Virus record (IMG/VR): IMGVR_UViG_2853968202_000001
Span: 1-45,610 of that record
DNA: 45,610 nucleotides
Source of the DNA: a virus
Reading direction: 5' to 3' (one strand)
Shown in pieces: positions 1-42,699 of the stretch (position 1 is its first letter; each line of letters begins with the position of its first letter). The position numbers and the translations under genes are program-made. The notes under the pieces are model-generated. The model saw nothing but the letters and a program-made list of their open reading frames with translations. It was not told the origin of the DNA and ran no database searches.

Positions 1-92
1 ACTACTACTACTACTAGAAAGTAGTAGTGTAGTGTGTACACAGCAGGTACACTCTTTGGGAAAACCTAAGTGCCTGTGTACACACTGTGTAC
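1..92. repeat. Terminal direct repeat, left copy (identical to 45519-45610)
   Basis: Read directly: ACTACTACTACTACTAGAAAGTAGTAGTGTAGTGTGTACACAGCAGGTACACTCTTTGGGAAAACCTAAGTGCCTGTGTACACACTGTGTAC occurs at both window ends. Confidence 0.95.
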
Positions 93-1283: not shown

Positions 1284-1335
1284 CGTAGCTTTAAGCTCTC
1301 CGAGATCTTTGCTCTCTTTGAGGCAGGAGAGCTAT

Positions 1336-2109
1336 ATGAGAATCGGAGTTACCAATCAGAAGGGAGGAGCCGGCAAGACGACAACCACGCTGAACGTGGC
1401 CGGCGCGTTGAACCAACTCGGGAACGATGTCCTCGTGATCGACTTGGATCCACAGGGCCACGCCACCGAAGGACTCGGATGCGAGGATCTGTACGACGAC
1501 CGCGAGCGCGACTCGTTGTTCGATGTACTCCCCGACCTGGACCGAATGGACGACCTTGACCAACTGATCATCGAGCACGATGAGGTCGATGCCGTCCCGT
1601 CGCACGAGAAGATGATTAATGCCGAGGACGCGCTCGCGAACGTGATGAAACGCGAGGAGCGCCTCGACATGCTCCTCGAGGAGACTGACCAAGACTACGA
1701 CTACGTGCTGGTCGACTGCCCGCCGAACCTCGGCGTGCTCACGGACAACGCGATCGTCGCGACGGGAAACGTGCTGATCCCGGCACAGGCGAAGACAACG
1801 TCGATCCGTGCAATCAAACTCCTGTTCAAGCAACTCCGCTCGATCGAGTCCGCGTTCGGCGATGTCGACGAACTCGCGCTGGTCGCGAACGAGGTCGAGG
1901 TCGACGGCGAGGCCGACGAAATGATGGACTGGTTCAGAAATGTCTTTGAGGACAAAGACGGGTGCGAGGTTTTTGAGGTCAGAAAGCGAGTCGCCTTGCA
2001 GCGCGCCTGGAACAACGGCGTCTCGATCTTCGAACACGAGGAAGAGTCTGATATGGAAGATGTGTATCTCGATGTCGCCCGGCACCTGGAGGCGTTCGGC
2101 GATGAGTGA
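1336..2109 (+). CDS. parA: ParA/Soj-family partition ATPase
   Basis: Deviant Walker A KGGAGKTTT in MRIGVTNQKGGAGKTTTTLNVAGAL, followed by DLDPQGHAT and VLVDCPPNLG. Internal ATG at 1336 is preceded by AGGAGAG. The track ORF begins at 1309. Confidence 0.9.
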   Translation: MRIGVTNQKGGAGKTTTTLNVAGALNQLGNDVLVIDLDPQGHATEGLGCEDLYDDRERDSLFDVLPDLDRMDDLDQLIIEHDEVDAVPSHEKMINAEDALANVMKREERLDMLLEETDQDYDYVLVDCPPNLGVLTDNAIVATGNVLIPAQAKTTSIRAIKLLFKQLRSIESAFGDVDELALVANEVEVDGEADEMMDWFRNVFEDKDGCEVFEVRKRVALQRAWNNGVSIFEHEEESDMEDVYLDVARHLEAFGDE

Positions 2110-12114: not shown

Positions 12115-14709
12115 TTACGCAGTTCGATTCTTTTCGCGCCGGCGGCGGTTGCGGACGGCCTCGTCGGCCATGTCCTCGAGGTCGCCGATCGAGACGAGGG
12201 CGTCCCGCGGGAGATCGCCGAAGTCGATCATGATCGGGCGTGGCTCTCTCCCGCTGTTCTGGTTGCCACCATCGCTCGAGTCGGCCGCATTAGCCAGACT
12301 CTCGAGGCGCTGGACCTGATCCGCTTGCATCACCTGCTCGCCCTTGTGAACCACCGCACGACCGGTCTCTCGAATCCGACCACCGACGTCGAGCTGCGGG
12401 AGTGAGATTGAGCCACCACTAATGTCTGCTCCCAGTGCATTTGCAGCCGCTACAGCAGCATCAGGGATATCAATACTACTGGGAATGGCCTCGTTGAACG
12501 CGCCGCGGAACCCTTCTGCGGCGGCGTCGCCAGCCGCGGAGAATGCTGACGAGAGCGTGCCAGCGATGTCCCAGTCGTTATCGAGCCAATTCGTGAGGTC
12601 GCCGAACATCCCCGTTACGTCGCCGTATAGCGTGTCATCGCCGGTCCCGGTCAGCCACTCGGCGGCCGACTCGGCCTTGGAGACGACAGTGTCGATTCCG
12701 CCCTCAACTTTCGAGCTCCCTGTATCCGTAATCCAGCTTGCGATACTCGAGAGGCCCGAGGTGACGGAGCCGTAGAGTGAGTTGTCGCCGGTCCCGTAGA
12801 ACCACTGGAACCCGGTCTTGACGGCGGAGATGTAGCCGTTGATCGCGCCCTTGACGAGCGAGACCGCGGTCGACTTGATATACGCCGCGATATCCTCGAA
12901 CATATCGGGAATCAGCGAGTTCCCGATCAGGCCCTGGTAGAGCCCCTTGGCAGCAGCCATGATCGCGTCGAACGCGAGTTTCGCGGCTGCCTTGAGGATC
13001 CCTGGTCCTTCGTTGATCAGCCATGACCCCGCGTCGATGATCATCGACTTGATAATCGAATCACCGTTCCCGGTAACCGCATTGTAAATATCAAGTGCGA
13101 TGAACCGGATGCCTTCCCCAATCTTCCTAAAGGCGGATTTGAGAAGAGCGGGCCCGTTCGCCTCCAGCCACGTGGCCGCGTCTGATGCGACGCTCTTCAG
13201 CTTCCCGATCGCCTGATTGGCGAACTTGCGAACCACTTCCCTGTTTTCACTCAGAACATAGCCGATTCCGCCGATGGCTGCCACGAGCAAGCCGATCGGG
13301 CCGAGGACTCCTACCACAGCAGTACCGAACGTCCCCATTGTCCCAACGAGGCCAGTGAGTGGCGCTAAGAGTCCACTCACCATTGCTGTAAGCGCGCTGA
13401 ATGGACCGATCACAGTACCGAGGAGTGCGTTGACTGGGCCGAGTACCGCAGTGAGACCTCCGAGCGTACCCACAGCCGTCGAAAGTGGGCCGATAAGCGC
13501 ACCGAACGCGATGAGCAGCGGGCCGAGCGCCGCAGCAACCCCGCCGACGCCGACGATAACTGTCTGTGTCGTCCTGTCGAGCCCCGAGAACCGGTCTGCA
13601 AGATTCGTCGCGAGGTTGGCAGCCTGCCGGATGTACGGCGTCAGTACACTTCCGAACTCGATCGCAAGGTCAGCGACCGACGACTTGAGCATCTCGATCG
13701 AGCCGTGCAGCGTGTCTCGCTGCGTCTCGGCGACTTTCTGCGTCTCGCCGTCGAGTTCGGAGAGGGCCTGAGCCTCGTTTCGGAGTGCGTCGCTCCCCTG
13801 GTCGACAAGCGCCTGCATGGCCGGTCCAGCCTGGTTCCCGAACAGGGCCATGATGTCGGCTGTCTTGGCGCCACTCTCCTCGAGCTGGCCGATGATCTCG
13901 TGGAGGGGGAGCATGTTCCCCTCGGCGTCGTTGACCTTGATGCCGAGGGACTCGATCGTCTCGGCAGCTTTCCCGGTCGGGTTCTGCAGCGACGATAAGG
14001 CAGACCGGAGGCCAGTACCCGCCTTTTCCGCCTTGATACCGACGTCGCCCATCATCCCGATCGCGGCCGAGGTCTCCTCGATCGACATCCCGAGACCGGA
14101 TGCAACCGGCGCAACCTGGCTCATCGCCGAGCCGAGACCCTGCATGGTCTGATTGTGTCGGTTGACCGTACCGGTCATCGTGTCAGTGACCTTGGAGAGT
14201 TCCGAAGCCTCCATTCCGAACGCTGACAGTGTATCTGTGGCTACGTCAGTGGCCTCCTGGAGACCCATTTGCCCCGCCTCAGCCATGGCGGCGACTTGTG
14301 GCATGGCCTCCATCGATTCGGCCGCGTCCATGCCCGCACTGGCGAGGTAGTAGTACGATTCTGCCGCTTGGTTATGCGACATCGTCGTACTCTTTGCGAC
14401 GTCCCGCGCCGTCTTCTCGAGTTTATTACGTTCAGCAGTTGACACATCGCCCATTATTGATATGGACTGCTGCATCGACTTTTCAAAGTCAGCAGCAGTC
14501 TTTGCTGCGGCGCCGCCCATCGCAGCAAGCGGCGCAGTGACGCCGGCGGTCATGGACTTCCCTGCGGATTGCATCCGCTGGCCGGTCGACTCGAACGACG
14601 CGCCCATGTCCTCGGCCTGGCCCTGGACGTCCTCGATCGCGGACTTGGCGCCAGAATGATCTATCTCGATACTGCCGCGTAATTCGCTTAGTGCTCCGAT
14701 AATTGACAC
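12115..14709 (-). CDS. Tail tape measure protein (864 aa)
   Basis: GTG start. The N-terminal third matches my memory of the TP901-family TMP core (ASAGMDAAESMEAMPQVAAMAEAG, GMSIEETSAAIGMMGDVGIKAEKAGTGLRSAL). Long central G/A/L/V-rich hydrophobic region. Position after the chaperone genes. Confidence 0.9.
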   Translation of the reverse strand: MSIIGALSELRGSIEIDHSGAKSAIEDVQGQAEDMGASFESTGQRMQSAGKSMTAGVTAPLAAMGGAAAKTAADFEKSMQQSISIMGDVSTAERNKLEKTARDVAKSTTMSHNQAAESYYYLASAGMDAAESMEAMPQVAAMAEAGQMGLQEATDVATDTLSAFGMEASELSKVTDTMTGTVNRHNQTMQGLGSAMSQVAPVASGLGMSIEETSAAIGMMGDVGIKAEKAGTGLRSALSSLQNPTGKAAETIESLGIKVNDAEGNMLPLHEIIGQLEESGAKTADIMALFGNQAGPAMQALVDQGSDALRNEAQALSELDGETQKVAETQRDTLHGSIEMLKSSVADLAIEFGSVLTPYIRQAANLATNLADRFSGLDRTTQTVIVGVGGVAAALGPLLIAFGALIGPLSTAVGTLGGLTAVLGPVNALLGTVIGPFSALTAMVSGLLAPLTGLVGTMGTFGTAVVGVLGPIGLLVAAIGGIGYVLSENREVVRKFANQAIGKLKSVASDAATWLEANGPALLKSAFRKIGEGIRFIALDIYNAVTGNGDSIIKSMIIDAGSWLINEGPGILKAAAKLAFDAIMAAAKGLYQGLIGNSLIPDMFEDIAAYIKSTAVSLVKGAINGYISAVKTGFQWFYGTGDNSLYGSVTSGLSSIASWITDTGSSKVEGGIDTVVSKAESAAEWLTGTGDDTLYGDVTGMFGDLTNWLDNDWDIAGTLSSAFSAAGDAAAEGFRGAFNEAIPSSIDIPDAAVAAANALGADISGGSISLPQLDVGGRIRETGRAVVHKGEQVMQADQVQRLESLANAADSSDGGNQNSGREPRPIMIDFGDLPRDALVSIGDLEDMADEAVRNRRRREKNRTA

Positions 14710-14814
14710 CTCTGTTGAAGACTCCGGATTGCAGGATTCGTGGGCGCGAGCAGCGTGCTCGAGCGTGACCGAACGCTTAACTTACTAGTTGTTATCATTA
14801 TAACTAGAGTCGCT

Positions 14815-15132
14815 ATGGATACTGAGACCCAGGCGGTCGAACCAACCGAATTGAAAACGTGCGAGCGCTGCGAGGGAGAGTTGCCGAAGGGGACGCGCTG
14901 GAAGTGCCCTCACTGCGGGATGCGGCCGTGGCTTGATGCCGTCGTGATGGGCAGCGTCTGTGTGTCGGTCGGGTTGTTCCTGACCGTCACGGTTGTCCTC
15001 GCGATTGTCGGCGTTCCGTTGATGGTTCTCGGAGGGCTAATCGTCTTGCTCGCACCGTTGATGCGGCCACACCGCTCCGATCTCATGTCGGGGCAAGAGA
15101 GAACGATAACCGGCGACGTCGTCGAGAACTAA
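14815..15132 (+). CDS. Zinc-ribbon membrane protein encoded antisense to the late operon ('moron', 105 aa)
   Basis: ATG at 14815, preceded by AT-rich TTATCATTATAAC about 15-27 nt upstream. CERCEGELPKGTRWKCPHCG is followed by two hydrophobic spans (VVMGSVCVSVGLFLTVTVVLAIVGVPLMVLGGLIVLLAPL). It is the only plus-strand gene between 2.6 and 38.2 kb. Confidence 0.65.
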   Translation: MDTETQAVEPTELKTCERCEGELPKGTRWKCPHCGMRPWLDAVVMGSVCVSVGLFLTVTVVLAIVGVPLMVLGGLIVLLAPLMRPHRSDLMSGQERTITGDVVEN

Positions 15133-15335
15133 TCCTCGAGCTCCGAGAGATCGAGCTGCAGCGGGATCCCGTCGGCGATCGCCTCACGCTCGAGTTCGTT
15201 CGTCTTGTTCACGATGTCATCAAAAGCGAGGGCGCCGGCACGGTTCCCGTGCTCACGGGCCGCGTCGCGCTGCTCTTTCGCGTACTCCCGGAGCTCGGCG
15301 AGCGGGCCAAGCGGGCGGACAACATCGTCGGTCAT
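15129..15335 (-). CDS. Small acidic hypothetical protein (68 aa) in the tail module
   Basis: ATGA overlap with the upstream gene. Its stop overlaps the stop of the plus-strand moron by 4 nt. Confidence 0.6.
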   Translation of the reverse strand: MTDDVVRPLGPLAELREYAKEQRDAAREHGNRAGALAFDDIVNKTNELEREAIADGIPLQLDLSELED

Positions 15336-15679
15336 GCTCCCCTCTCTCCGAAAAAGTATGGCCGGGTCTCGATCGACTCGTAGTCACCACCAACCCAGTG
15401 GGCCGTCCCACAGGCGCCGGCATCGAGCTCTCGATCGGGCCCGTAAATCTGGATGTACAGCTCGTCGGCACCCGGCCAGTCAGGATCGTCGATCTGGGCA
15501 ATCGCCTCGAGGACGGCGTCGGCGATCTCTCGAACGTCGTCGTCCGACGGCGCCGAGTCGACCGCGTCGTCTAGCTGGACAACAACCTCGTAGCAGTACT
15601 GTCGACCGTCCGGCGCCGGCGGCAGTTGCTCGGCGTCGACGACGTGAGCAGTGTCCGAACCGGGGAGTAGCGAGCGCAT
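15332..15679 (-). CDS. Acidic hypothetical protein (115 aa) in the tail module
   Basis: ATG at 15679 chosen (the track ORF starts at a TTG at 15703). Typical acidic composition. Confidence 0.6.
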   Translation of the reverse strand: MRSLLPGSDTAHVVDAEQLPPAPDGRQYCYEVVVQLDDAVDSAPSDDDVREIADAVLEAIAQIDDPDWPGADELYIQIYGPDRELDAGACGTAHWVGGDYESIETRPYFFGERGA

Positions 15680-15708
15680 GAGTAGTATGAAAAACGGATA
15701 CAACTCTA

Positions 15709-16568
15709 CTAGTTGTTCTGGTTGGCTTGCTCGGCCCGCTCACGCTTGGCGGCGGCCTTCGAGCGCACGTACTGCCGGATCGCATAGCGCTCTTTCGGCT
15801 CCGTATCCCGACCGAACTCGATCGGCGTTTTCCCGAGCCCTTCGACGACGACCTCCATCCAGGCGACGCCGTAGTAGTCGTCGCGCCCGACGAAGTCGTC
15901 GATCGCCTCACGTTCGTCGGGGGTTAGTTTCCCTCGCCCTCGTCGGTCGCCTCGAGGCGCTCGGCGACAACCTGCTGAGAGAGCGTCGATAGCCCCTCCT
16001 TGATGACGTTACCGTCGGCGTCGGTCTCGTCCTCGAGCTTGAACCGGCCCCAGCGCTGGGCGCCTCGGGAGAGATCATCGCCCTCGGGGACGGTCTCGTC
16101 GCCCATCACGGGGTCGGTACAGAGCTCGGTGATCGTCTCGAGCTGGTGATCGTAGAGCCCGACAACACTCTTGATCGACTCGGGATCGAGGTTCTCCTCG
16201 ATCGTCTCGTTGACTGCCTCGTCGTCGTCGGGATCAACGTCCTCGAACGTCTCGGGGTCCGACTCGGAGAGGATCTTCATCGTCTGCCGGCGGTGGATCA
16301 CGCCGGGCTGAGAGAACTCGAACTCACGGCCACGGAACGAGATCGTGTCGACGTCGCGGGTCGTCTCCTGAGTGAGCCAGTCCTCGATCGCCTGGCCGTC
16401 GGCAGCGCTCTCGAGTTGTTCTTGTTTCTGCTCTTGGCGCTCGTCTTCGGCAGCCTCGTGCTTTTGCTCGCCACGCTCGAGCTGCTCGTCGACGTTCTCG
16501 CCACCGAGGTCCTGGAGGACTTCCTCGCGATCCTCCGGCTCCGGCGGCTTGGTAGGTGCCTGGGACAT
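15709..16568 (-). CDS. Tail assembly chaperone, -1 frameshifted long (GT-like) product (~286 aa)
   Basis: Hand translation of the -1 frame after G GGA AAC gives 72 further codons: LTPDEREAIDDFVGRDDYYGVAWMEVVVEGLGKTPIEFGRDTEPKERYAIRQYVRSKAAAKRERAEQANQNN, then TAG at 15709-15711. This stretch has no upstream start codon of its own (the only in-frame ATG is internal, MEVVV). Confidence 0.7.
15886..15933 (-). promoter_or_regulatory. -1 programmed frameshift signal: slippery GGGAAAC plus 9-bp stem-loop
   Basis: On the minus strand: GGGAAAC (15933-15927), 5-nt spacer TAACC, stem CCCGACGAA (15921-15913), 18-nt loop, stem TTCGTCGGG (15894-15886). The two stem arms are perfectly complementary. Confidence 0.75.
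15924..16568 (-). CDS. Tail assembly chaperone, short (G-like) product (214 aa)
   Basis: Very acidic protein located between the major tail protein and the TMP. Ends ...GAG GGA AAC TAA, which contains the slippery heptamer. Confidence 0.8.
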   Translation of the reverse strand: MSQAPTKPPEPEDREEVLQDLGGENVDEQLERGEQKHEAAEDERQEQKQEQLESAADGQAIEDWLTQETTRDVDTISFRGREFEFSQPGVIHRRQTMKILSESDPETFEDVDPDDDEAVNETIEENLDPESIKSVVGLYDHQLETITELCTDPVMGDETVPEGDDLSRGAQRWGRFKLEDETDADGNVIKEGLSTLSQQVVAERLEATDEGEGN

Positions 16569-19815: not shown

Positions 19816-20967
19816 CTAGATCCCCGTCATTCGGACGATGCCGCGAATACCGTCAGGCTGGCGCCGGACGAACGGCATCCGGCTCGCGACGAGCTTGTGT
19901 CGGCGTGCGTGTCCTCCATCGATGTCCCAGGCAGTGTTGGTCATGCCCTGGGCGTTGACGATCCCGAAGTAGCGCGGGTCGTTGAGCAGGAAGATCGCGG
20001 TGTCGCCGGCGAGACGCGGCGCCGGGAGCACGTTGATGTAGGGGTACTTCCGCTCGATGCGATCGATGAGCGGCTCGTCGACCGCACCGGAGTCAGGCTG
20101 GTAGTCCTGTCGAGTGACGTTGCCCCACTGCTGGCGCGGGACCAGCAGGTAGCCGCCGACCTGGTCGACGAGCGGGACGTCGTCAGTGTCCTCGACGTCC
20201 TCCTGGTCCTCGATCTGGTCGTGGAGGTGGTCGAAGTCGTCAAGGACGACCTGCGCGTCGTCCCAGCCGGCGCCGGTCGAGCCGGTCTGAATGATCTGCG
20301 AGGTGTCGGAATTGAGGCCGGTGACGCTAACGGATCCGAAGTCCTCCATCTCCCACGTTCCGCCCCAGCCGTTGAACAGGACATGAGCCTCGCGACGGTT
20401 GATCGCACGACGGGCTTCTCGAGCCTGGTCAGTCTCGGGCTCCTCGCCGTGGGCTCGGCGAACCTCCATCTCGCGGCCGTCGAGCTCGTAGTCGACGTGA
20501 ACCACGGGCTGTGCGACGGCGTCGACGCCCGATCGCGTTCGGTCCTGGCGGGAGCGCGATCGCGGGTTCATGGAGACGTCGGCCTCCATCCGGCCAGCCT
20601 GTAGGCTCGTCGCGTACACGTAGTTCGCGAGCGAGGATGGGATGTTGAAACCGGCGCCGAGTAGCGTGTCAATGATCGTCGACTGGACGAACTGCTCGTT
20701 CAGTACCTCATCACCGAACTCGATGCCCGACTGGTACCCGTAGGGACTGTCGGCGGTGATCTCCTCTTTCCCTTCGGGCTGCTTGATGCCGGCCTGGATG
20801 TCAAGCTGCTCCCACATCTCGGGGGAGTGGCCCGACTTGGCGCGAATCTCTTTGAGTGCGCGCTCTCGAGCGTCCTTGAAGGGGTTGAAGAACGCCGTGA
20901 TGTGCTCGTCCTCTGCTTCGTCCTGGAACTCACTGTGCGTCGAAACGTACGTCTCACTAGTTGCCAT
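19816..20967 (-). CDS. Major capsid protein, HK97 fold (383 aa)
   Basis: ATG start. Size and position (after protease/scaffold and the decoration-like gene, before the connectors). No other capsid-sized ORF in the module. Confidence 0.8.
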   Translation of the reverse strand: MATSETYVSTHSEFQDEAEDEHITAFFNPFKDARERALKEIRAKSGHSPEMWEQLDIQAGIKQPEGKEEITADSPYGYQSGIEFGDEVLNEQFVQSTIIDTLLGAGFNIPSSLANYVYATSLQAGRMEADVSMNPRSRSRQDRTRSGVDAVAQPVVHVDYELDGREMEVRRAHGEEPETDQAREARRAINRREAHVLFNGWGGTWEMEDFGSVSVTGLNSDTSQIIQTGSTGAGWDDAQVVLDDFDHLHDQIEDQEDVEDTDDVPLVDQVGGYLLVPRQQWGNVTRQDYQPDSGAVDEPLIDRIERKYPYINVLPAPRLAGDTAIFLLNDPRYFGIVNAQGMTNTAWDIDGGHARRHKLVASRMPFVRRQPDGIRGIVRMTGI

Positions 20968-23904: not shown

Positions 23905-25521
23905 TTAGTCGTCGTCCGCCGGCGCACCGTTGGCATCTGCGCCGTTGCTCTCGGCGCCGGTGCCGATCCCCATCTCTTCGGCTGCCTGTTGGACGTCGGC
24001 ATCGCTTTCGTCAATGTTCGACTCGGCACTGTTCGCGATTTCGTCGTCGAGCTCGGTCGGGAGCGTTCCCTCGCGATAGAACTCGAGTTGCTGCTCACGA
24101 GTCAGCAGGTCGTCGGGATAGCCTGCGGTCGCTGTGTTTAGGAACTCCGCACGAGTCTTCTTGATCGACGCGACCTCGGACTCGTCCGTTTCGGCGAGCG
24201 GCGGCCAGGAGACGTCGTACCCGCCGATCTCTCGATTTTCAGCCTGGCCGGCCGGCGCAATGAGGACCCCGTACCGGAGACAGCGATCGATGATCTCACG
24301 AACGAACGTCGGAGTCACGAACTCCTCGCGGCGGGACTGGATCTTGCCGTACCACTCTCGGAGATCCTGCTGGGTCGCCCGCTCGCCCGTCTCGTTGCCC
24401 TTGAGGACCGACTGCGGAATGCCGACCTGAGCCGAGATGGCTGCGACGTTCGGATCGATGATCGGCTGGGGGTCAATCGTTTCGCCGCCGAGGTTCTGGA
24501 CGTCGTCGGCGCCCTCGGTCCGCAGGATCGGCTCGAGTCCGTAGTACCAGCGCTGGAGGTGATCCCGGAGGTTGTCCCCTCCATCCTCGAGCTGGTAGTC
24601 CGGCGAGATGTTGACGTTGATCCCCCACGCCGAGGCGCGGTAGGCGACCTCGCCAGCGGAGCCGAGTGCCTTCTCGATGTCGACGAGATTGTTCCAGATC
24701 GGTTCCTGGCGCGGCGTCCCGCGGATCTCGTCGTCGAGCAGGCCGTCGCTCGGGATGTGGACGACTCGAGAGTGGTGAATCTCGAGCTCGGTCGGCCCGT
24801 TGTGGCTGACTGCGTCATCCTCGTCGTCGAGATCGACGTGGTAGACGTTGGGCTCTCCCCAGCGTCCGGATCCCGGCCCACCGAGCTCGATCTCGTCGAC
24901 GGAGGCCTGCGAGAAGGGGCGGAGGCCGTTGAGCTCTGAAACCGAGTTTTCGTCGACCTCGTCGGCGAACCCTTCCGGCGAATCAATGTCGTCGAACTCG
25001 AGGACGAGGATGCCGAACTCACCGATCCCCGAGAGCTTGTCTGCTCGGTGCGTGTAGTGCCACAATCGAAGATCCTCGACGAGGTGCTCGACCTCTTGCT
25101 CGAACTCGGTCTGTTCGTCGTCGGCAGTCTCACCTCGATCCTCGATCTGTGGGGCATCACGCCAGGTCGTGTCGACGGGCTGGTCGCAGACCGCCCTCGC
25201 GTAGGCGTTCCGCAGGTACATCCCGTAGTAGTCTTCGACCTCGGGATCCTCGTCCCAGCCGAAGACGTCGTACTTGTCCTGGCCACCGCCGATCTCGGAA
25301 TCGATCGCGGCCGTCAGCGCGTGCCGCATCTGCATGTCTGCACGCTGGCGCTGCTCGGCAGCCGTGATCTCGTAGGTCTCCGAGTCGTCAGTCTCCGCGC
25401 CGGCGGCTGCCCGGAGATCGATCGACGGTGCCTCGTGAACGTCGCTGGCCTCGAGGACGCCCCGGATGTCTCTGTGCGTCGGGCCGTAGACCTCGCGTTT
25501 GTCGTCGGTAGGTGCACCCAT
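23905..25521 (-). CDS. Portal protein (538 aa)
   Basis: ATG start 4 nt after the TerL stop. Size and TerL-portal-MuF order. Confidence 0.8.
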   Translation of the reverse strand: MGAPTDDKREVYGPTHRDIRGVLEASDVHEAPSIDLRAAAGAETDDSETYEITAAEQRQRADMQMRHALTAAIDSEIGGGQDKYDVFGWDEDPEVEDYYGMYLRNAYARAVCDQPVDTTWRDAPQIEDRGETADDEQTEFEQEVEHLVEDLRLWHYTHRADKLSGIGEFGILVLEFDDIDSPEGFADEVDENSVSELNGLRPFSQASVDEIELGGPGSGRWGEPNVYHVDLDDEDDAVSHNGPTELEIHHSRVVHIPSDGLLDDEIRGTPRQEPIWNNLVDIEKALGSAGEVAYRASAWGINVNISPDYQLEDGGDNLRDHLQRWYYGLEPILRTEGADDVQNLGGETIDPQPIIDPNVAAISAQVGIPQSVLKGNETGERATQQDLREWYGKIQSRREEFVTPTFVREIIDRCLRYGVLIAPAGQAENREIGGYDVSWPPLAETDESEVASIKKTRAEFLNTATAGYPDDLLTREQQLEFYREGTLPTELDDEIANSAESNIDESDADVQQAAEEMGIGTGAESNGADANGAPADDD

Positions 25522-28014: not shown

Positions 28015-28293
28015 TCACTTGTCCGTCGGAAGTAGGCGTTCGGCCTCGAGGTTCCAGAGGCGACCGACCAGCAGGAACACGAGCGCCGTGAACAGCCCGT
28101 AGTAAGGCGGGGCGACTGCCGCAACCCCCTCAAACGTGAGCGAGAGGGAGATCACCGACCAGAGAACGACCAAAATTAGCGCAACAACCTTCGGGACCGT
28201 CTCAGTCTCATCCTGCGGCATCAGTGCCCTCCAAAGTCCGACAGCCTCGATTTTCGCGCGCTCGTACGACGGAGTGTGTGGTTTGGCAGACAT
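28015..28293 (-). CDS. Small membrane protein, two TM segments (92 aa)
   Basis: ATG start. VVALILVVLWSVISLSL and LFTALVFLLVG. Confidence 0.6.
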   Translation of the reverse strand: MSAKPHTPSYERAKIEAVGLWRALMPQDETETVPKVVALILVVLWSVISLSLTFEGVAAVAPPYYGLFTALVFLLVGRLWNLEAERLLPTDK

Positions 28294-28302
28294 AGGTCAT
28301 CC

Positions 28303-28563
28303 TCAGTCCGTGAGTCCGCCGACGATCTGGTCCGCTACGGGGATCACCGCCCCCATCGCCACCTCGAACGATCCTGGTTCTGGCTCCTCGCCACGAGCCG
28401 CAACCAAGACACCAGCGATTGCACCAATTGCCAGCGTCCGACTAAATTTGCGTGGCTTAAATTCCTTCTCGTCGTTTAAGACTGCGTGAGCGTATCCCGA
28501 AACGGCATACGCAGCGCCCAAGACGACGTACAGTGCAAGCATCACCGCCTTATTTTCTGCCAT
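28303..28563 (-). CDS. Small membrane protein (86 aa), first gene after the 28.6-29.1 kb gap
   Basis: ATG start. AVMLALYVVLGAAYAV and LAIGAIAGVLVA. Confidence 0.6.
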   Translation of the reverse strand: MAENKAVMLALYVVLGAAYAVSGYAHAVLNDEKEFKPRKFSRTLAIGAIAGVLVAARGEEPEPGSFEVAMGAVIPVADQIVGGLTD

Positions 28564-28973
28564 GATTGCATTGAAAGTCTTCGAACCGCAGTACGGAAAG
28601 GTGGGGAGGCGGACTGGCTGATGAGGATCAGTTCGCGGCAGGAGGTCGCTCGAGAGAGATCCTCGCTTTCGCTCGGGCTCTCAAACGAACCGGCAGATCC
28701 TGAGTTGTCCCCAGGGCACTGCCGGCCTACCCGCACCGCGGACTCGCTGACTCGTAGCGCGTAGCGCTTAGACCGAAGAAGATGAACAATCGAAGAACTC
28801 CTGTCCAGGACACGACGTCCGAACGCTTGCCGACGGCAGCGTCACGTACCGTGTCAGTCGTGTACCAGCCCTCGAGTACAACGAGAAACTCACAGCGCTC
28901 TATCAGAGCGCTCGGGTATCCTCAGCCAGCTATGCTCGAGCGCAACACGAGCAGGGAACTGACTTCACCGGAA

Positions 28974-29029
28974 ACCGGAGCCGGGAGTCGAACCCGTTTG
29001 ACCTGGCCCATTGGTGCCAGTACTCCGGC
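28974..29029 (-). ncRNA. tRNA-like element: acceptor stem + D-arm + T-arm, with no anticodon arm (56 nt)
   Basis: Minus strand reads GCCGGAG-TA-CTGG-CACCAATGGG-CCAG-GTCAA-ACGGG-TTCGACT-CCCGG-CTCCGGT. It has a 7-bp acceptor stem (one G-U), a 4-bp D stem with GGG in the loop, and a consensus TTCGANT T-loop. One A-G mismatch closes the T stem. Confidence 0.4.
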
Positions 29030-29109
29030 GACGTCCGCAATCCCCTCGGGCATCGAACGATAGGATACGATCGGTTAGCCGAGCCACGGCGCCGTCATCG
29101 GAGAGGATG

Positions 29110-37827: not shown

Positions 37828-38195
37828 TGCCCGTCGCCTCCGTTGATATGCTCCTCGAGCCAATTGAGCTCGTACTCGAGGACGTCCTCGCCCATCTCCG
37901 TGATCGCGTAGTTGTTCGTCCGCCGGTCGCGCTGCCCCTTCTCGACGAGGCCATAATCGACCAGCCTATCAAGGTTCGGAAAGAGTCGGCCATGCAACAG
38001 CTCCTCGCCGTAGTAGGTCTCGGCCTCGCGCTTGATCCCAAGGCCGTACCGGTCCTGCTGGGCGATCGTGGCGAGACAGCGGACTTGAAACTTCGTCAGG
38101 TCGGCCGCAATCGCTTGAATGTCCTCGTCCTCTGAGTTTCTAGTGCTGTGCGACGTGGCGTTGCGCTTATCTGTGTTGTTGTCGTCTGTTTGCAT
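37824..38195 (-). CDS. PadR-family transcriptional regulator (123 aa), first gene of the 38.2->34.8 kb operon
   Basis: RYGLGIKREAETYYGEELLHGRLFPNLDRLVDYGLVEKGQRDRRTNNYAITEMG is the PadR wHTH signature. Confidence 0.8.
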   Translation of the reverse strand: MQTDDNNTDKRNATSHSTRNSEDEDIQAIAADLTKFQVRCLATIAQQDRYGLGIKREAETYYGEELLHGRLFPNLDRLVDYGLVEKGQRDRRTNNYAITEMGEDVLEYELNWLEEHINGGDGQ

Positions 38196-38227
38196 GGTTG
38201 CAGGATTGCAGGATTGCAGGATTCGGA
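38196..38227. repeat. 8-bp tandem repeat (GGTTGCAG GATTGCAG GATTGCAG GATTCGGA) abutting the PadR start codon
   Basis: Read directly. Two exact and two degenerate units begin at the base next to the ATG (38195). Confidence 0.8.
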
Positions 38228-38507
38228 GCCGATTCTCGCTCCGGATTAGTGTCTGTGACCGGCGATCGGTCGGGGCGCGCTAGGACCTGGACAGTTGCAG
38301 CGGGCCCCGACGTAGATCGCAAGCGGCTGGTTGTTCGTTCGACACGATACCCTACTAAAGTGACGCGCACCGTTTCGGAGAGGATACACAACAGTAATAT
38401 GCTGTTAGAAGTGCTGAACGCTGCTGTAGGCAGCCATTTACGAAGTCGATTTTGGGTGTGTTGTGTCATCCTTGATGTTGTATGCCGACGCGAAATTACC
38501 GCGCCAG

Positions 38508-38726
38508 TTATAATTCTGCCAAATGGCTTTCAGCGGTGCCTAGTGTTTGGCCGGATTTCTTCCAACCGTCCTCCACTTCGTCACTGTGTTCATCGACATA
38601 GTCCTCGAGAGCTTCGATGAGGACATCTGTCCGGTTTATATCGGAATCTGGGCTAGACCGTGCATGGACGATTGCGTCCAAGTCATTTTTGAGCCCATTT
38701 GGAATTCGGAACGAGGTTGTCGGCAT
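38508..38726 (-). CDS. Ribbon-helix-helix (CopG-like) protein (72 aa)
   Basis: ATG at 38726. TSFRIPNGLKNDLDAIV ... NRTDVLIEALEDYV. Confidence 0.7.
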   Translation of the reverse strand: MPTTSFRIPNGLKNDLDAIVHARSSPDSDINRTDVLIEALEDYVDEHSDEVEDGWKKSGQTLGTAESHLAEL

Positions 38727-38735
38727 ACGAATTCC

Positions 38736-38822
38736 TGTAATGCGGCAATTCACATAAATGTAATGCAGCAACTCAGTAATTCCGTCGGTGGAATGAAGTG
38801 CATTGGCTTAATACTGTAATGC
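38736..38822. promoter_or_regulatory. Three TGTAATGC boxes in the divergent RHH-RHH intergenic region (candidate operators)
   Basis: TGTAATGC at 38736-38743, 38759-38766 and 38815-38822. The first two continue as (G/A)GCAA. AT-rich context. Confidence 0.55.
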
Positions 38823-38827
38823 AAGAG

Positions 38828-39058
38828 ATGACCGACGAAGACAAACTGAAGACGCACTCTTTTCGCGCCAATGAGGACACAGTCGAATACCTGGACTGGC
38901 TCATTGACCAGAAGAATGCCCAGCTACCGCCAGGATCTGATGAAAGAATTAGCCGTAGTGACGTCCTCAGAGAGTGCATCAACGATGTAATCGAAGAGCT
39001 TGAGGACGAGGTTGATGTGGGAAACTCAACCAGTCAGAAGATGATGACGGCTGATTAG
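38828..39058 (+). CDS. Ribbon-helix-helix (CopG-like) protein (76 aa; alternative ATG 38819)
   Basis: HSFRANEDTVEYLDWLI ... SRSDVLRECINDVIEEL. Divergent from the RHH gene at 38508-38726. Confidence 0.7.
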   Translation: MTDEDKLKTHSFRANEDTVEYLDWLIDQKNAQLPPGSDERISRSDVLRECINDVIEELEDEVDVGNSTSQKMMTAD

Positions 39059-39087
39059 GCGGAACTCACATACGACACACACTCTCT

Positions 39088-40158
39088 CTATGATGCGTTC
39101 GCCAGTAGCTCCAGCTGAATCGGTACCTCGAGATTCTCGTCGATGACTTCGTACTCTGCCCATCTGTTTTCTCCGTGCTGCCTGACGAGATCGTACTCTA
39201 CCAGTTTCGATAGGTAGTCGTTCACCCGTCGCCTCGAGACAGGGTCGTGATCTCGATCGGCGTAGATCGCGGACCCATGAGTCTCGTACAGTGAGTGGAG
39301 CCGCGCGCCATCGACGAGATTGGCGTCGGCGTACCGAAGGAGTTCATAGATCACACAGGGGCCGAACGGTAGGCTCCGGAGATTCGTCTCTCGGATCTTC
39401 GTACGTGCGCGGCCAAACGCATCTCGGATATCGTGCTCTCGGATCCGGCTATGGTCTCGTTCTTCGGCGAACTCCGCCGCAGACAGCAGCGACTGGATCC
39501 CATAGCGCGCGACGCCGGCGACTTCGTCGGCGATCCACTCCAGTTGTTCATTATGGATGACGCCGGGCTCGAGGCCATGCTCAGCACGGTGCTCGAGAAT
39601 ATCCGCGAGTTCGTCGACAGCGTATCGTTCGAACTCGATCTGCGATTTGAGCGAGAAGTAGTTTTGAAGCTCGTCATCGAGGCGGGCCAGCCACTCTCGA
39701 GGTTCATGGACGATCGCGATGACCGAGAGCAGCGGAATCTCGTATAGATCGCGGAGGACCTTCAGGTCGCGGACTGTTTCGGCTTCGTCGAGGATCACGA
39801 CGTAGGGCTGGTCAACAATGCTCTCGAGAGCGTCAACCAGCTGGTCGGCTGGCGAGTTTGGCCGCACTGCGGCATCGACCCGATGCTTTATCGCGGCTTC
39901 GTGGAGGATCGCGCAACGTGTGTTGCTCGAGTTGATCAATGTCCAATCGATGCTGTAGTCACGAAATTCGCGGCGGAGAACGTGTCGAGCGGTCGTTGTC
40001 TTTCCGACACCCGATGGGCCATAGATCAGCACGTCCTCGCCGCGCTGACCTCTCGTTGCCGGCTCGAGAGCTCGCGTGAGTTGCTCGCACTCACTATGCC
40101 GATGGGGAACCTGTTCCGGGAGCCGCTCGTCGAGAAACACCCATCGTTTGGTAATCAT
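39088..40158 (-). CDS. orc1: Orc1/Cdc6-type replication initiator (AAA+ plus C-terminal winged helix, 356 aa)
   Basis: LPHR-type N-terminal motif (VPHRHSECEQL). Walker A GPSGVGKTT. Walker B VVILDEAE. Winged-helix-like C-terminus. ATG 40158 preferred over GTG 40218. Confidence 0.85.
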   Translation of the reverse strand: MITKRWVFLDERLPEQVPHRHSECEQLTRALEPATRGQRGEDVLIYGPSGVGKTTTARHVLRREFRDYSIDWTLINSSNTRCAILHEAAIKHRVDAAVRPNSPADQLVDALESIVDQPYVVILDEAETVRDLKVLRDLYEIPLLSVIAIVHEPREWLARLDDELQNYFSLKSQIEFERYAVDELADILEHRAEHGLEPGVIHNEQLEWIADEVAGVARYGIQSLLSAAEFAEERDHSRIREHDIRDAFGRARTKIRETNLRSLPFGPCVIYELLRYADANLVDGARLHSLYETHGSAIYADRDHDPVSRRRVNDYLSKLVEYDLVRQHGENRWAEYEVIDENLEVPIQLELLANAS

Positions 40159-40284
40159 TACTGACCGTTTCAATAGATGGTGTAAAAGGTCTGACGGGCG
40201 TTGTTTCGGAGAGGACACCGCGTACTTCCGCTGTAACCCACGAACAGCGAGAGAGACCCGCCCTTAGGGCGAGAGGGCCGTGGA

Positions 40285-40716
40285 TTAGATCGACGTGCTG
40301 GTCTCGAGCTCGTACTCGTCGTATTCGGACGACCCAACGGTCGTCACAATTTCGAATGAGAGCGTTGAGCCGTCTGCCACATCATTGAAGTTATCCATCC
40401 CGTCACCGACGCGGGTACCCTCCGAATCGTAGAAGAGGGCTGAAACTTCAATGTAACTCTGTTCTTCGCCAGTGTTGTTCTGGATTTTCCCCTCGATGTT
40501 GACGGAGTCGCCGTACTCTGCCTCGACAGCCTCGTGTTCGAGGATTTCGACCGACCCACTGTCGCCGCCGTTCTCGTTCCCGTTCTCGTCACCGTTCTCG
40601 TCACCGTTGCTGCTTGCCGAGTCTCCGTTATCCTCGCTCCCACTGCACCCTGCGAGCAGCGCGGTAGTTGCTCCACCAATACCAACGATCGCTTTGCGTC
40701 GAGTTAGTTCCTGCAT
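40285..40716 (-). CDS. Tat-exported lipoprotein with an FxLYD-like beta domain (143 aa)
   Basis: Twin-arginine TRRKAIVGIGG followed by the lipobox LLAGCSG. A D/N/G/E-rich linker. SALFYDSEG. GGAGGT lies 8 nt before the ATG. Confidence 0.75.
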   Translation of the reverse strand: MQELTRRKAIVGIGGATTALLAGCSGSEDNGDSASSNGDENGDENGNENGGDSGSVEILEHEAVEAEYGDSVNIEGKIQNNTGEEQSYIEVSALFYDSEGTRVGDGMDNFNDVADGSTLSFEIVTTVGSSEYDEYELETSTSI

Positions 40717-40855
40717 CTGTCAGTACCTCCCCTGTGCGGGGAATGCTACCCGCCCGCTGTGACACGGGATACACACTCCTAAAGTCAGGTAGTTGAACAT
40801 AATAGGTGATTTGAACCTTATGTAGCTGTTTATTTCAAATATTCATATATTCTGA

Positions 40856-41224
40856 CTATAGGAGTGAGCTATCCCCGAACCGTTCGCGCTGGGCCTCGAG
40901 TGACCTGCAGACGTCGGCGTCAGCCGGTGGCAAGACTTGCTTGATGGCCATCCCGACACGAGCCATGTGCTTGCATCGAGTAATCTCGCCACGACCAGGC
41001 CCGCCACGGAAGCGCCAGTCGTCACAAGTGCACCGACCGGCGCCGGCGTCAACGACGTACTCGCTGTAGTCTTCACTACCAGTCCCGACGCCCCAGAGGC
41101 CGCCGCCGATCTCCCAGATCCCCATCGGCTCCTCCGCTGCTCGCCGGTCCCGCGTGAGCGTCTCAGTATCGATGCCGACAGCGCCGTCACTCGAGCGAGC
41201 GTGGGTATGACTCGAGGCCGCCAT
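40856..41224 (-). CDS. SWIM zinc-finger protein (122 aa)
   Basis: CTCDDW ... CKHMARV gives a CxC-x(n)-CxH pattern. Confidence 0.7.
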   Translation of the reverse strand: MAASSHTHARSSDGAVGIDTETLTRDRRAAEEPMGIWEIGGGLWGVGTGSEDYSEYVVDAGAGRCTCDDWRFRGGPGRGEITRCKHMARVGMAIKQVLPPADADVCRSLEAQRERFGDSSLL

Positions 41225-42424: not shown

Positions 42425-42590
42425 TGGTCGATCACCGATTCCGAAATCGTTTCGTGGGTTCGCGTTTGAGCGTTCATTGCTGGTCTTCAGCACGGTCGGG
42501 GGCGCTCTAACGCCCGCCGGCCACAGACTTCTGCGGCCGATCTCCCGTGCACAGTAATGTCTATGCGACCCATTTACTTAAAGGTTTGCC

Positions 42591-42662: not shown

Positions 42663-42699
42663 CCATATGGTAATGGAGGTAAAACAACCCGCCACTACG

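What the first reader, a model, noticed from the sequence alone, without database searches (positions are those of the whole stretch)
14710..15132. Opposite-strand zinc-ribbon membrane gene wedged between the tail chaperone genes and the tape measure gene
From 2.6 to 38.2 kb every gene is on the minus strand except one. That gene (14815-15132) encodes a 105-aa protein with a CxxC...CxxC zinc ribbon followed by two long hydrophobic spans. Its 3' end overlaps the stop of the upstream late gene by 4 nt. It has its own AT-rich promoter-like sequence (TTATCATTATAAC, 14792-14804). The late transcript must therefore run about 420 nt antisense through it to reach the TMP start at 14709. This is the classic layout of a prophage 'moron'. 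In the enterobacterial phage HK97, a membrane-protein moron next to the TMP gene confers superinfection exclusion by blocking TMP-dependent DNA entry, so an analogous role is plausible here. Convergent transcription could also make it a switch that interferes with late gene expression.
Basis: partly seen in the sequence, partly recalled or inferred. Interest (0 to 1): 0.65.

Follow-up and report, generated by a model that had tools for sequence, protein, structure and literature searches.

The report
Inverted zinc-ribbon membrane gene beside tape-measure gene
A small membrane-anchored zinc-ribbon protein gene sits backwards in front of the tail tape-measure gene of a salt-loving archaeal virus; it belongs to an unstudied gene family that such viruses keep at this same spot in either orientation, which makes it a candidate for a virus-entry blocker or some other partner of the tape-measure protein.

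Summary
ORF 14815-15132(+) encodes 105 aa: a CxxC...CxxC zinc ribbon followed by a 42-residue hydrophobic block. It is the only plus-strand gene in the roughly 35-kb minus-strand block. It overlaps the stop of the next minus-strand gene by 4 nt and lies 105 nt, head-to-head, from the tape-measure (TMP) start.

It is a real gene. A family profile built without it scores it at 76.8 bits, and relatives show dN/dS of 0.12-0.47.

The main new result is that it is not a one-off insert. Homologues lie directly upstream of the TMP gene in Humcor1, HJTV-4 (unannotated there) and several proviruses and metagenomic contigs, on the same strand as TMP. In two distant haloarchaeal siphovirus lineages (L011, L013) they are divergent from TMP, as here. 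The "unusual" opposite-strand gene HrrHc1_050 of Hardycor1 is also a family member. Cellular homologues exist.

TATA-like elements about 27 nt upstream travel with the gene, so it looks like an autonomous cassette.

The immediate neighbours are two ORFans, not chaperones. The true G/GT chaperone pair lies at 15709-16568.

The function is untested. My best guess is a membrane protein expressed independently of the late genes and functionally tied to TMP, for example one that excludes entry, as HK97 gp15 does.

The parts
14815..15132 (+). Gene for a 105-aa zinc-ribbon membrane protein ('ZnR-GIP' family), inverted relative to the late operon
   Evidence: ORF. Family HMM built without it scores 76.8 bits, E 4e-23. 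Exhaustive phmmer finds 31 distant relatives. tblastn to HJTV-4-type loci gives 37-41% identity.
14860..14916 (+). Zinc-ribbon knuckles C16xxC19 ... C31PxC34
   Evidence: All four Cys and P32 are invariant in alignments A1 and A4. The profile hits generic zinc ribbons (eL40, RPB12) in the PDB.
14938..15063 (+). 42-residue hydrophobic block (residues 42-83) with the conserved G66-V-P68 motif; predicted membrane hairpin or long helix
   Evidence: Hydropathy. Family motif T.IGA..GIP. AF2 helix 38-83 with pLDDT >90. Relatives hit Pfam DUF5362 over this part.
14770..14782 (+). CGAACGCTTAACT, a BRE/TATA-like element shared with HJTV-4-type relatives upstream of their ZnR genes
   Evidence: 13-nt exact match to L006, and 12/13 to HJTV-4, where it lies at about -29..-21 from the ATG. 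Unique as an exact match in the window.
14783..14793 (+). Copy 1 of the 11-nt direct repeat TACTAGTTGTT, between the TATA-like element and the ATG
   Evidence: Only two exact copies exist in the window; 0 of 100 shuffles reach the match count at <=2 mismatches. Removing it restores the TTAACT-to-ATG spacing of the relatives.
14792..14804 (+).
   Evidence: Sequence. One of 23 AT-rich patches in 45.6 kb. CTAG is observed 31 times against 161 expected.
14710..14814 (.). 105-nt divergent spacer between the TMP start and the ZnR start (GC 0.505)
12115..14709 (-). Tail tape measure protein gene (864 aa)
   Evidence: Pfam PhageMin_Tail 3.6e-47. PHROG TMP families. 37-49% identity to halovirus TMPs.
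15129..15335 (-). 68-aa acidic ORFan, tail-to-tail with the ZnR gene (4-nt overlap)
   Evidence: Strong codon score. No family or relative match.
15332..15703 (-). 123-aa ORFan (alternative ATG start at 15681)
15707..15717 (+). Copy 2 of TACTAGTTGTT, covering the stop codons of the GT chaperone frame
15709..16568 (-). G/GT tail assembly chaperone pair: 214-aa acidic G, plus a -1 frame extension open from 16008 to 15709; slippery G GGA AAC at 15933-15927
   Evidence: The same type of site is reported for Hardycor1 in PMC7911831.

Best explanation
**Shown**
- The window is a complete circular genome of about 45.5 kb. It is a haloarchaeal siphovirus-like element that is probably plasmid-borne (it encodes ParA and Orc1) and probably from Natrinema.
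- ORF 14815-15132(+) is a genuine gene of an uncharacterised family of small proteins. Members have an N-terminal CxxC-x10-12-CPxCG zinc ribbon and a hydrophobic membrane segment carrying a conserved G-[IV]-P motif.
- Haloarchaeal siphoviruses keep this gene at the junction between the G/GT tail chaperone and the tape-measure gene, in either orientation. TATA-like elements about 27 nt upstream of its ATG travel with it. It therefore behaves as an autonomous, promoter-bearing cassette rather than as an obligatory part of the late operon.
- In this genome the cassette is inverted. It is divergent from TMP and convergent with two ORFan genes. Together the three genes form a 1-kb accessory island between the GT stop and the TMP start.

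**Inferred**
- The protein inserts in the cell membrane with the zinc ribbon in the cytoplasm.
- It is transcribed independently of the late genes, for example in the carrier or provirus state.
- It acts on the process that TMP mediates. The most likely action is blocking membrane channel formation and DNA entry by incoming related viruses (superinfection exclusion), by analogy with HK97 gp15.
- In the inverted layout its terminator-less transcript would also run antisense into the two ORFans. TMP is then reached either by read-through of the late transcript or from a promoter in the 105-nt spacer.
For: **Gene and family**
- establish the gene and its family.
- Purifying selection in relatives: dN/dS 0.12-0.47.

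**Position next to TMP**
- Co-oriented, directly upstream of TMP: Humcor1, HJTV-4, a Hrr. aidingense provirus, JGI contig L005, L006/7, L010 and L182/183.
- Separated from TMP by an HNH gene: L009.
- Divergent from TMP with 48-50-nt spacers, in unrelated acidic-proteome siphovirus contigs: L011 and L013. L011 has the same 4-nt tail-to-tail overlap as the window.
- Hardycor1 HrrHc1_050, the opposite-strand CxxC/TMD gene called unexplained in PMC7911831, scores 33 bits against the family.

**Own promoter**
- CCTTATTACA is conserved at -29..-20 in five Humcor1-type loci, while the flanking bases vary.
- CGAACGCTTAACT is shared by the window, L006 and HJTV-4.
- 10 of 11 ZnR loci have a hexamer with at least 5/6 A/T at -36..-17, against 10 of 46 late genes.

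**Other**
- Carriers are temperate or persistent elements: Humcor1 is an induced provirus; P0002 lies in the Natrinema thermotolerans chromosome; the window has ParA and Orc1 and is circular.
- Cellular homologues sit next to TrkH/pyruvate kinase and next to AhpC. This mirrors the gp15/YebO relationship.
Against: - No expression data exist, and no phenotype is known for any family member.
- In most relatives the gene is tightly packed in the late operon, 30-80 nt from TMP, which in Humcor1 has a strong Shine-Dalgarno sequence. It could therefore simply be a late gene.
- There is no terminator-like T run downstream and no compositional deviation.
- In the window the TATA-like elements are at -38..-31 and -23..-12, not at the canonical -27 position.
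- PADLOC has no match, Foldseek finds nothing significant, and there is no sequence relation to gp15/YebO.
- Topology is unresolved: it may be one long helix or a hairpin.
- The loci are partly related by descent, so the promoter statistic is not made of independent samples.
Confidence: 0.5

Rival explanations
1. The protein is a late-expressed helper of the virus's own cycle. It would be a membrane-anchored factor that works with the hydrophobic tape-measure protein during tail assembly, or it would take part in egress (holin-like). Under this reading it is an essential or near-essential module partner of TMP, not a host-benefit gene.
For: - Linkage to the TMP start is strict across lineages whose TMPs are only 25-28% identical.
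- It is present in all close relatives rather than sporadically.
- In co-oriented genomes it is packed tightly in the late operon.
- HRTV-DL1 has an unrelated small TM ORF (ORF20) at the same place, which has been discussed as a holin candidate.
Against: - Inversion in at least three lineages, and relocation to the head module in Hardycor1, uncouple it from late-operon transcription.
- It has conserved TATA-like elements of its own.
- Cellular homologues occur in non-viral contexts.
- No endolysin gene is adjacent.
- The text searched on virion proteins of HRTV-DL1 did not list ORF20.
Confidence: 0.25
2. The protein is a membrane-tethered regulator. The cytoplasmic zinc ribbon would bind a host or viral protein or nucleic acid at the membrane, in the manner of anti-sigma factors or other sequestering proteins. 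This would tune the carrier state or host physiology, and its place next to TMP would be a historical accident of a permissive insertion hot spot.
For: - Small CxxC zinc-finger proteins are common regulators in haloarchaea and haloviruses (PMC7911831).
- The chaperone|TMP junction is a hot spot holding other accessory genes: HJTV-4 gp33-38 including an HNH gene, and the window's g123 and g68.
- Cellular paralogues exist.
Against: Six of the seven viral lineages examined have the gene at the TMP start, and immediately next to TMP even when other accessory genes are present. A general hot spot does not predict that.
Confidence: 0.12
3. The main function here lies in the inversion itself. Convergent or antisense transcription from the cassette would act as a switch that throttles the two ORFans and/or the tail genes downstream.
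For: - No terminator-like T run follows the gene for more than 650 nt, so its mRNA should run antisense into g68 and g123.
- The same tail-to-tail 4-nt overlap recurs in L011.
Against: - The co-oriented relatives cannot work this way.
- The protein itself is conserved and under purifying selection.
- No invertase gene was found, and the flanking inverted repeat is at chance level (11-nt core).
Confidence: 0.08
4. The ORF is a chance open frame on the antisense strand of a non-coding spacer.
For: - Long spurious ORFs abound in this GC-rich genome.
- Synonymous codon usage is no better than that of 40% of spurious ORFs.
- A word-indexed search with the single protein found only the protein itself.
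Against: - It matches the family profile at 76.8 bits, with all invariant residues kept.
- Homologues lie at the same genomic position.
- GC1/2/3 is gene-like.
- No alternative minus-strand ORF fills the 420-nt gap.
Confidence: 0.02

Closest known systems
HK97 gene 15 moron (gp15, YebO-like inner-membrane superinfection exclusion protein; Cumby et al. 2012, summarised in PMC3594210)
   Same: - It is a small membrane protein gene lying exactly between the tail assembly chaperone (G/T) genes and the tape-measure gene of a temperate siphovirus.
- It has homologues in cellular genomes outside prophages.
- It is proposed to be an independent transcription unit.
   Different: - There is no sequence relationship (no YebO hit).
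- It has an added N-terminal zinc ribbon.
- The host is archaeal, with a single membrane and an S-layer.
- It is conserved at the site across a whole virus clade rather than sporadic.
- It occurs in both orientations.
- It has no terminator and no GC deviation.
- Exclusion activity has not been tested.
Humcor1 HrrHm1_085 'CxxC domain protein' and the unannotated ORF upstream of tmp in HJTV-4
   Same: They are homologous (37-41% identity to the HJTV-4 type; family HMM). They have the same architecture and the same position, immediately before the TMP gene.
   Different: They are co-oriented with TMP and 30-40 nt from it. Here the cassette is inverted and lies 105 nt from TMP, with two ORFans on its other side.
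Hardycor1 HrrHc1_050 (opposite-strand CxxC + TMD gene in the assembly module, noted as unexplained in PMC7911831)
   Same: It belongs to the same family by profile (33 bits), and it is likewise an opposite-strand gene inside an otherwise unidirectional structural module.
   Different: It sits in the head module, not at the TMP junction, and its zinc ribbon has a longer spacer.
Pfam DUF5362 and bacterial 'zinc ribbon + IGAxxGIP' membrane proteins
   Same: The hydrophobic segment with the IGA..GIP motif is shared. Relatives P0021, P0024, P0039 and P0040 pass the DUF5362 threshold. Hundreds of bacterial loci match this segment.
   Different: The window protein itself does not reach E 0.1 for DUF5362. 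DUF5362 has no known function. The bacterial hits are not next to TMP genes.
Ltp-type and other entry-blocking Sie proteins (TP-J34 Ltp, P22 SieA)
   Same: They are membrane-located prophage proteins that stop DNA entry. From my own recollection, not tested here, Ltp is reported to target TMP.
   Different: No homology was found. Foldseek matches to 'host cell surface-exposed lipoprotein' entries were not significant (E 0.49). Those genes lie in lysogeny modules, not beside TMP.

Membership tests
ZnR-GIP small membrane protein family (defined here: Humcor1 HrrHm1_085, HJTV-4 ORF, Hardycor1 HrrHc1_050, P0002-P0048) | N-terminal zinc ribbon CxxC-x10-12-CPxCG | tested here: met
   C16, C19, C31, P32 and C34 align to invariant columns.
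ZnR-GIP small membrane protein family | Uncharged hydrophobic stretch (median 36 aa) containing G-[IVLAS]-P | tested here: met
   Residues 42-83, with G66-V67-P68.
ZnR-GIP small membrane protein family | Significant score against a profile built without the query | tested here: met
   76.8 bits, E 4e-23 at Z=1000.
ZnR-GIP small membrane protein family | In viruses: located at the start of the tape-measure gene | tested here: met
   105 nt from the TMP start. Six of the seven viral lineages examined share the position.
Phage moron (Juhala et al. 2000; PMC3594210) | Extra gene between two genes that are adjacent in related genomes | tested here: inconclusive
   All close relatives also carry it at this site. 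HRTV-DL1 (TMP 49% identical) lacks it and has an unrelated TM ORF. Hardycor1 has it elsewhere.
Phage moron | Own promoter | tested here: inconclusive
   TATA-like elements are conserved upstream in relatives and partly here. There is no transcript evidence, and the spacing in the window is non-canonical.
Phage moron | Own terminator | tested here: not met
   No run of four or more T on the plus strand between 14600 and 15800.
Phage moron | Nucleotide composition different from neighbours | tested here: not met
   GC 0.607 against 0.623 for the late module. Only synonymous codon adaptation is lower: 0.08 against 0.25-0.55.
Phage moron | Expressed from the repressed prophage; dispensable for lytic growth | not testable with these tools
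   Needs RNA-seq and genetics.
HK97 gp15 / YebO family | Sequence homology to YebO/gp15 | tested here: not met
   No YebO-type Pfam hit at E <= 0.1. No direct comparison with the gp15 sequence was run.
HK97 gp15 / YebO family | Gene between the tail chaperone and TMP genes; small membrane protein | tested here: met
   The G/GT pair is at 15709-16568, TMP is at 12115-14709, and the protein has a hydrophobic block. This is a positional analogy only.
HK97 gp15 / YebO family | Blocks DNA entry of superinfecting phage in a tail-dependent way | not testable with these tools
   An experiment is required.
Pfam DUF5362 | Score above the gathering threshold (25 bits) | tested here: not met
   Not listed for the window protein at E <= 0.1. 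Relatives score 27-31 bits.
Known anti-phage defence proteins (PADLOC) | Match to any PADLOC model | tested here: not met
   Best E-value 0.042, not meaningful.

The most novel reading that the evidence does not exclude
The ZnR-GIP family would be an archaeal counterpart of entry-blocking Sie proteins. Provirus or plasmid-virus carriers would express a membrane-anchored zinc-ribbon protein that recognises the incoming tape-measure protein of its own virus type and stops genome delivery across the archaeal membrane. The gene would stay glued to the TMP gene, in either orientation, so that the blocker and its target co-evolve and recombine as one module. If so, it would give a first genetic handle on how tailed archaeal viruses get DNA through the membrane.
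Probability: 0.3. Interest if true: 0.7.

Novelty: new variant of a known kind. Interest (0 to 1): 0.5.

Why it matters
Little appears to be known about how tailed archaeal viruses deliver DNA through the archaeal envelope, or about how resident archaeal tailed proviruses exclude competitors.

This finding defines a small gene family that several haloarchaeal siphovirus lineages hold next to the tape-measure gene, whatever its orientation. Members of the family are present in cultivable systems: HJTV-4 in Natrinema thermotolerans A29, and Humcor1 and Hardycor1 in Halorubrum coriense. That makes it a concrete, testable candidate for a TMP-linked membrane function.

It also explains a published oddity, the opposite-strand CxxC/TMD gene in the Hardycor1 assembly module. 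And it shows that the HK97-type chaperone|TMP junction is an accessory-gene site in archaeal viruses too.

Tried and rejected
- **Single-protein searches.** Word-indexed search with the single protein returned only the protein itself. IMG/VR scans with TMP and with g123 found nothing. Megablast of the region against phage genomes found nothing.
- **Coding tests.** Codon-model and synonymous-codon tests were not discriminating for this hydrophobic protein. I relied on homology instead.
- **G/GT extension idea.** I considered that the gap might hold the frameshifted 'T' extension of a chaperone on the minus strand. That strand has no long open frame there, and the true G/GT site lies 800 nt further on.
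- **Inversion by flanking inverted repeats.** The best pair (14738-14768 / 15184-15214; 71% over 31 nt, 11-nt exact core) is at chance level. Its right arm lies in well-adapted coding sequence of g68. No recombinase was found among the ORFs scanned.
- **Promoter scan.** I did not use the sigma-70 promoter/terminator scan, because the host is archaeal.
- **Broad pattern scans.** Scans of genomes and metagenomes returned mostly bacterial hits to the hydrophobic motif alone, which say nothing about viral context.
- **Structure and annotation libraries.** Foldseek against viral models, the PDB profile search, PADLOC and NCBIfam gave no functional lead.
- **Natrinema plasmid CP031301.1.** It shares only the replication/regulation region. 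It has no TMP and no ZnR-membrane homologue.
- **g123.** It has no match in PLSDB plasmids.
Full report
**What the window is**

The 45,610-nt sequence has a 92-nt exact terminal overlap, so it is a circular assembly of about 45.5 kb. Its proteins are strongly acidic (D+E 18%, K 2.3%), and its GC content is 61%.

It encodes a siphovirus structural module on the minus strand. The major capsid protein (19816-20967) is 48-49% identical to those of Halorubrum virus Humcor1 and haloarchaeal virus HJTV-4. The 864-aa tape measure protein (TMP, 12115-14709) hits Pfam PhageMin_Tail at 3.6e-47 and PHROG tape-measure families.

It also encodes a ParA-type ATPase (1309-2109) and an Orc1/Cdc6 protein (39088-40218). 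Patches of the 38-45.6 kb region are 78-84% identical to Natrinema plasmids. No integrase turned up among the ORFs scanned. The element is therefore most likely a plasmid-like temperate or persistent virus of a Natrinema-like haloarchaeon.

**Checking the observation**

The ORF runs from ATG 14815 to TAA 15132 and encodes 105 aa: MDTETQAVEPTELKTCERCEGELPKGTRWKCPHCGMRPW..., followed by a hydrophobic block at residues 42-83.

- Its last four bases overlap the 68-aa minus-strand ORF 15129-15335, with interlocked stop codons.
- It lies head-to-head with TMP across a 105-nt spacer of 50.5% GC. The spacer holds the AT-rich string at 14792-14804.
- No minus-strand frame is open across the gap.
- A crude codon-model gene map places every other gene from 2.6 to 38.2 kb on the minus strand.
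- The position-specific GC of the ORF (0.60/0.44/0.77) has the pattern of real genes here. Synonymous codon usage is weak, and 40% of spurious ORFs do as well. Sequence statistics alone would therefore not establish the gene.

**It is a gene, and it has a family**

A word-indexed search with the single protein found only the protein itself. The annotation of Humcor1, however, shows an 83-aa 'CxxC domain protein, two TM' directly upstream of tmp. BLASTP of that protein to the window protein gives E = 4e-6. HJTV-4 has an unannotated 89/91-aa ORF of the same build directly upstream of its tmp.

- A profile of these three proteins retrieved five more members.
- An exhaustive phmmer search of 1.8 billion representatives found 31 distant relatives of 65-143 aa.
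- The alignment shows a zinc ribbon, CxxC-x10-12-CPxCG, followed by a hydrophobic stretch with a nearly invariant G-[IV]-P motif (..LT.T.IGA..GIP....G).
- A profile built without the window protein scores it at 76.8 bits.
- Pairwise dN/dS among relatives is 0.12-0.47.
- The zinc-ribbon part resembles generic ribbons such as eL40 and RPB12.
- The hydrophobic part of some relatives passes Pfam DUF5362. This part is widespread on its own in bacteria.
- PADLOC, NCBIfam and PHROGs give nothing useful.
- AlphaFold (19-sequence alignment, mean pLDDT 78) models residues 38-83 as one long, confident helix. Foldseek finds no significant viral match.
- In many members both flanks of the hydrophobic stretch are basic, which favours a hairpin with both ends in the cytoplasm. 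This is not settled.

**The decisive context result**

Wherever a full-architecture member could be seen in a viral context, it lies at the start of the TMP gene, with one exception.

| Arrangement | Loci |
|---|---|
| Co-oriented, 30-80 nt upstream of TMP | Humcor1; HJTV-4; Hrr. aidingense provirus; JGI contig L005; L006/7; L010; L182/183 |
| Separated from TMP by an HNH endonuclease gene | L009 |
| Opposite strand, divergent from TMP across 48 and 50 nt | L011 (= L012, L018, L019); L013 |
| Opposite strand, in the head module (the exception) | Hardycor1 HrrHc1_050 |

L011 and L013 come from two distant members that I picked only because their contigs were long. They have different capsid protein families, their TMPs are only 25-28% identical to this one, and their proteomes are equally acidic. 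L011 also repeats the 4-nt tail-to-tail overlap with the next late gene.

The authors of the Hardycor1 paper flagged the opposite-strand CxxC-plus-TMD gene in its head module as unexplained. It is a member of this family too (33 bits).

Cellular members also exist. One is beside TrkH and pyruvate kinase in Halosimplex marinum. One is beside a peroxiredoxin gene in a metagenomic contig. One is near an integrase gene.

**The gene carries its own promoter-like element**

- In five Humcor1-type loci, CCTTAT[TC]ACA[CT]TCATG at -29..-14 is conserved, while the 13 nt before the ATG differ in every locus.
- In HJTV-4 and L006, CACGAAC[AG]CTTAACTAAA occupies about -36..-20.
- L013 has CCTTTATC at -32..-25.
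- These positions fit a haloarchaeal BRE/TATA box driving a leaderless mRNA. That consensus is established knowledge of haloarchaeal promoters and was not tested here.
- Ten of 11 ZnR loci have a hexamer with at least 5/6 A/T between -36 and -17, against 10 of 46 late genes. The loci are partly related, so this is supportive, not proof.
- The window keeps CGAACGCTTAACT (14770-14782) on the ZnR strand. It is identical over 13 nt to L006. So the inverted unit includes the promoter-like element.
- Here the element lies 10-11 nt further from the ATG than in the relatives. The extra bases are an 11-mer, TACTAGTTGTT (14783-14793). Its only other exact copy in the genome (15707-15717) covers the stop codons of the GT chaperone frame.
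- The two copies bracket the accessory island. They contain the strongly avoided tetramer CTAG (31 observed, 161 expected). I cannot say whether they mark a recombination event or a shared regulatory site.

**The neighbourhood**

The 214-aa acidic protein (15924-16568) ends in a canonical -1 slippery heptamer, G GGA AAC. The -1 frame is open from 16008 to 15709. This is the G/GT tail assembly chaperone arrangement, as described for Hardycor1.

Between its stop and the TMP start lie exactly 1.0 kb holding g123, g68 and the inverted ZnR gene. g123, g68 and the 49-aa frame have no tblastn match in the relatives and no family hit. HJTV-4 has a different accessory set at the same junction: three opposite-strand genes, two others and an HNH gene. 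The junction is thus an accessory-gene hot spot, with the ZnR gene as its constant member next to TMP.

**How it probably works**

Shown:
- It is a conserved protein-coding cassette with promoter-like elements of its own.
- It is linked to TMP across deep divergence, whatever its orientation.
- It is present in temperate or persistent elements.
- It has cellular homologues.

Inferred:
- The protein sits in the cell membrane with its zinc ribbon in the cytoplasm.
- It is made independently of the late operon.
- It acts on what TMP does at the membrane. Exclusion of superinfecting relatives is the best-precedented option. HK97 gene 15 lies at the same junction, encodes a small inner-membrane protein with cellular YebO homologues, and blocks DNA entry in a tail-dependent way (PMC3594210).

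I give the specific exclusion function about 0.3. I give the broader statement, an autonomous membrane accessory protein functionally tied to TMP, about 0.5-0.6.

In the inverted layout no T run follows the gene for more than 650 nt. If its transcript is made together with late transcripts, it should run antisense into g68 and g123. TMP must then be reached either by read-through or from the spacer. There is only a T4 run on the minus strand inside the cassette. In L013 a single TTTATC/GATAAA box lies about 25 nt from both divergent start codons, which hints at a bidirectional promoter.

**Rivals**

- A late helper of tail assembly or egress. This fits the strict linkage and universal presence in close relatives, but is weakened by the inversions, the relocation in Hardycor1 and the cellular homologues.
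- A membrane-tethered regulator placed at a permissive hot spot.
- A transcription-interference switch. This cannot apply to the co-oriented relatives or explain protein conservation.
- A chance ORF. Homology refutes this.

**Comparison with known systems**

It works most like the HK97 gp15 moron, but it is not a member of that family: there is no homology, and it has a zinc ribbon. It also fails two textbook moron criteria, a terminator and deviant composition, and a third (absence from relatives) is only met at larger evolutionary distance.

It is a member of a family whose only prior traces, in the records and papers I searched, are the annotations 'CxxC domain/motif protein' in Humcor1 and Hardycor1. 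I found no function assigned to it there.

I rate it a new variant of a known kind. It is of moderate interest, and it is directly testable in cultivable halovirus systems.

Noticed in passing
window 15709-16568 (slippery site 15933-15927, minus strand): There is a canonical -1 programmed-frameshift signal, G GGA AAC, at the end of the 214-aa acidic protein. The -1 frame is open from 16008 to 15709. This is the G/GT tail assembly chaperone pair, so the chaperones are not the genes that touch the zinc-ribbon gene.
   Followed up: partly
window 14783-14793 and 15707-15717: The exact 11-nt direct repeat TACTAGTTGTT, which contains the avoided CTAG, occurs only at these two places in the genome. 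The two copies bracket the 0.9-kb block holding the ZnR gene, g68 and g123. Each copy lies about 30 nt upstream of a possible start (ZnR ATG 14815; g123 ATG 15681). It could be a recombination scar or a shared regulatory site.
   Followed up: partly
window 15129-15335 and 15332-15703 (minus strand): Two well-coded ORFans (68 aa, acidic; 123 aa) lie between the GT chaperone and the ZnR gene. They have no match in Pfam, PHROGs, NCBIfam, PADLOC, the related viruses or PLSDB plasmids. Minus-strand T5 runs lie at 15690-15694 and 15351-15355.
   Followed up: partly
window 1-92 and 45519-45610: A 92-nt exact terminal overlap shows the contig is a circular assembly. The start of the window is an (ACT)5 repeat.
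   Followed up: partly
window 1309-2109 (+), 39088-40218 (-), 38000-45610: A ParA-type partition ATPase and an Orc1/Cdc6 replication protein are present. Patches of this region are 78-84% identical to Natrinema plasmids (for example CP031301.1 of N. thermotolerans A29), which share no structural genes with the window. No integrase was found among the scanned ORFs. This suggests a plasmid-like persistent virus.
   Followed up: partly
window 28015-29109: Two small predicted membrane proteins (28015-28293 and 28303-28563, minus strand; possible holin-like candidates) are followed by about 550 nt (28564-29109) with reversed AT skew and no convincing ORF.
   Followed up: no
whole window: The tetramer CTAG is strongly depleted (31 observed against about 161 expected). 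Many of the remaining sites coincide with gene ends. A similar depletion was reported for Hardycor1 (PMC7911831).
   Followed up: partly
L003 20754-21029 (HJTV-4, record OP374082 about 24431-24706): The zinc-ribbon membrane ORF directly upstream of the HJTV-4 tape measure gene is not annotated in the GenBank record. The same protein is annotated as hypothetical in the Natrinema thermotolerans chromosome (P0002).
   Followed up: yes
L185 207-521 (Hardycor1 HrrHc1_050): The opposite-strand CxxC/TMD gene in the Hardycor1 head module, called unexplained by its authors, matches the family profile (33 bits). This family therefore recurs as a reverse-strand gene inside halovirus assembly modules.
   Followed up: yes
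L013 7951-8000; L011 7953-8000: In the two other divergent layouts the spacer between the TMP and ZnR start codons is only 50 and 48 nt. In L013 a single TTTATC/GATAAA box sits about 25 nt from both starts, which suggests one shared bidirectional TATA element for two leaderless mRNAs.
   Followed up: no
L009 63-242 and 265-576: This metagenomic contig has a second, weaker zinc-ribbon ORF in tandem just before the family member, and an HNH endonuclease gene inserted between the member and TMP.
   Followed up: no
L001 6784-6987 (HRTV-DL1 ORF20): A halovirus whose TMP is 49% identical over the N-terminal 400 aa has, at the same pre-TMP position, an unrelated 67-aa hydrophobic protein without a zinc ribbon. 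A small membrane protein in front of TMP may be a more general feature of archaeal siphoviruses.
   Followed up: partly
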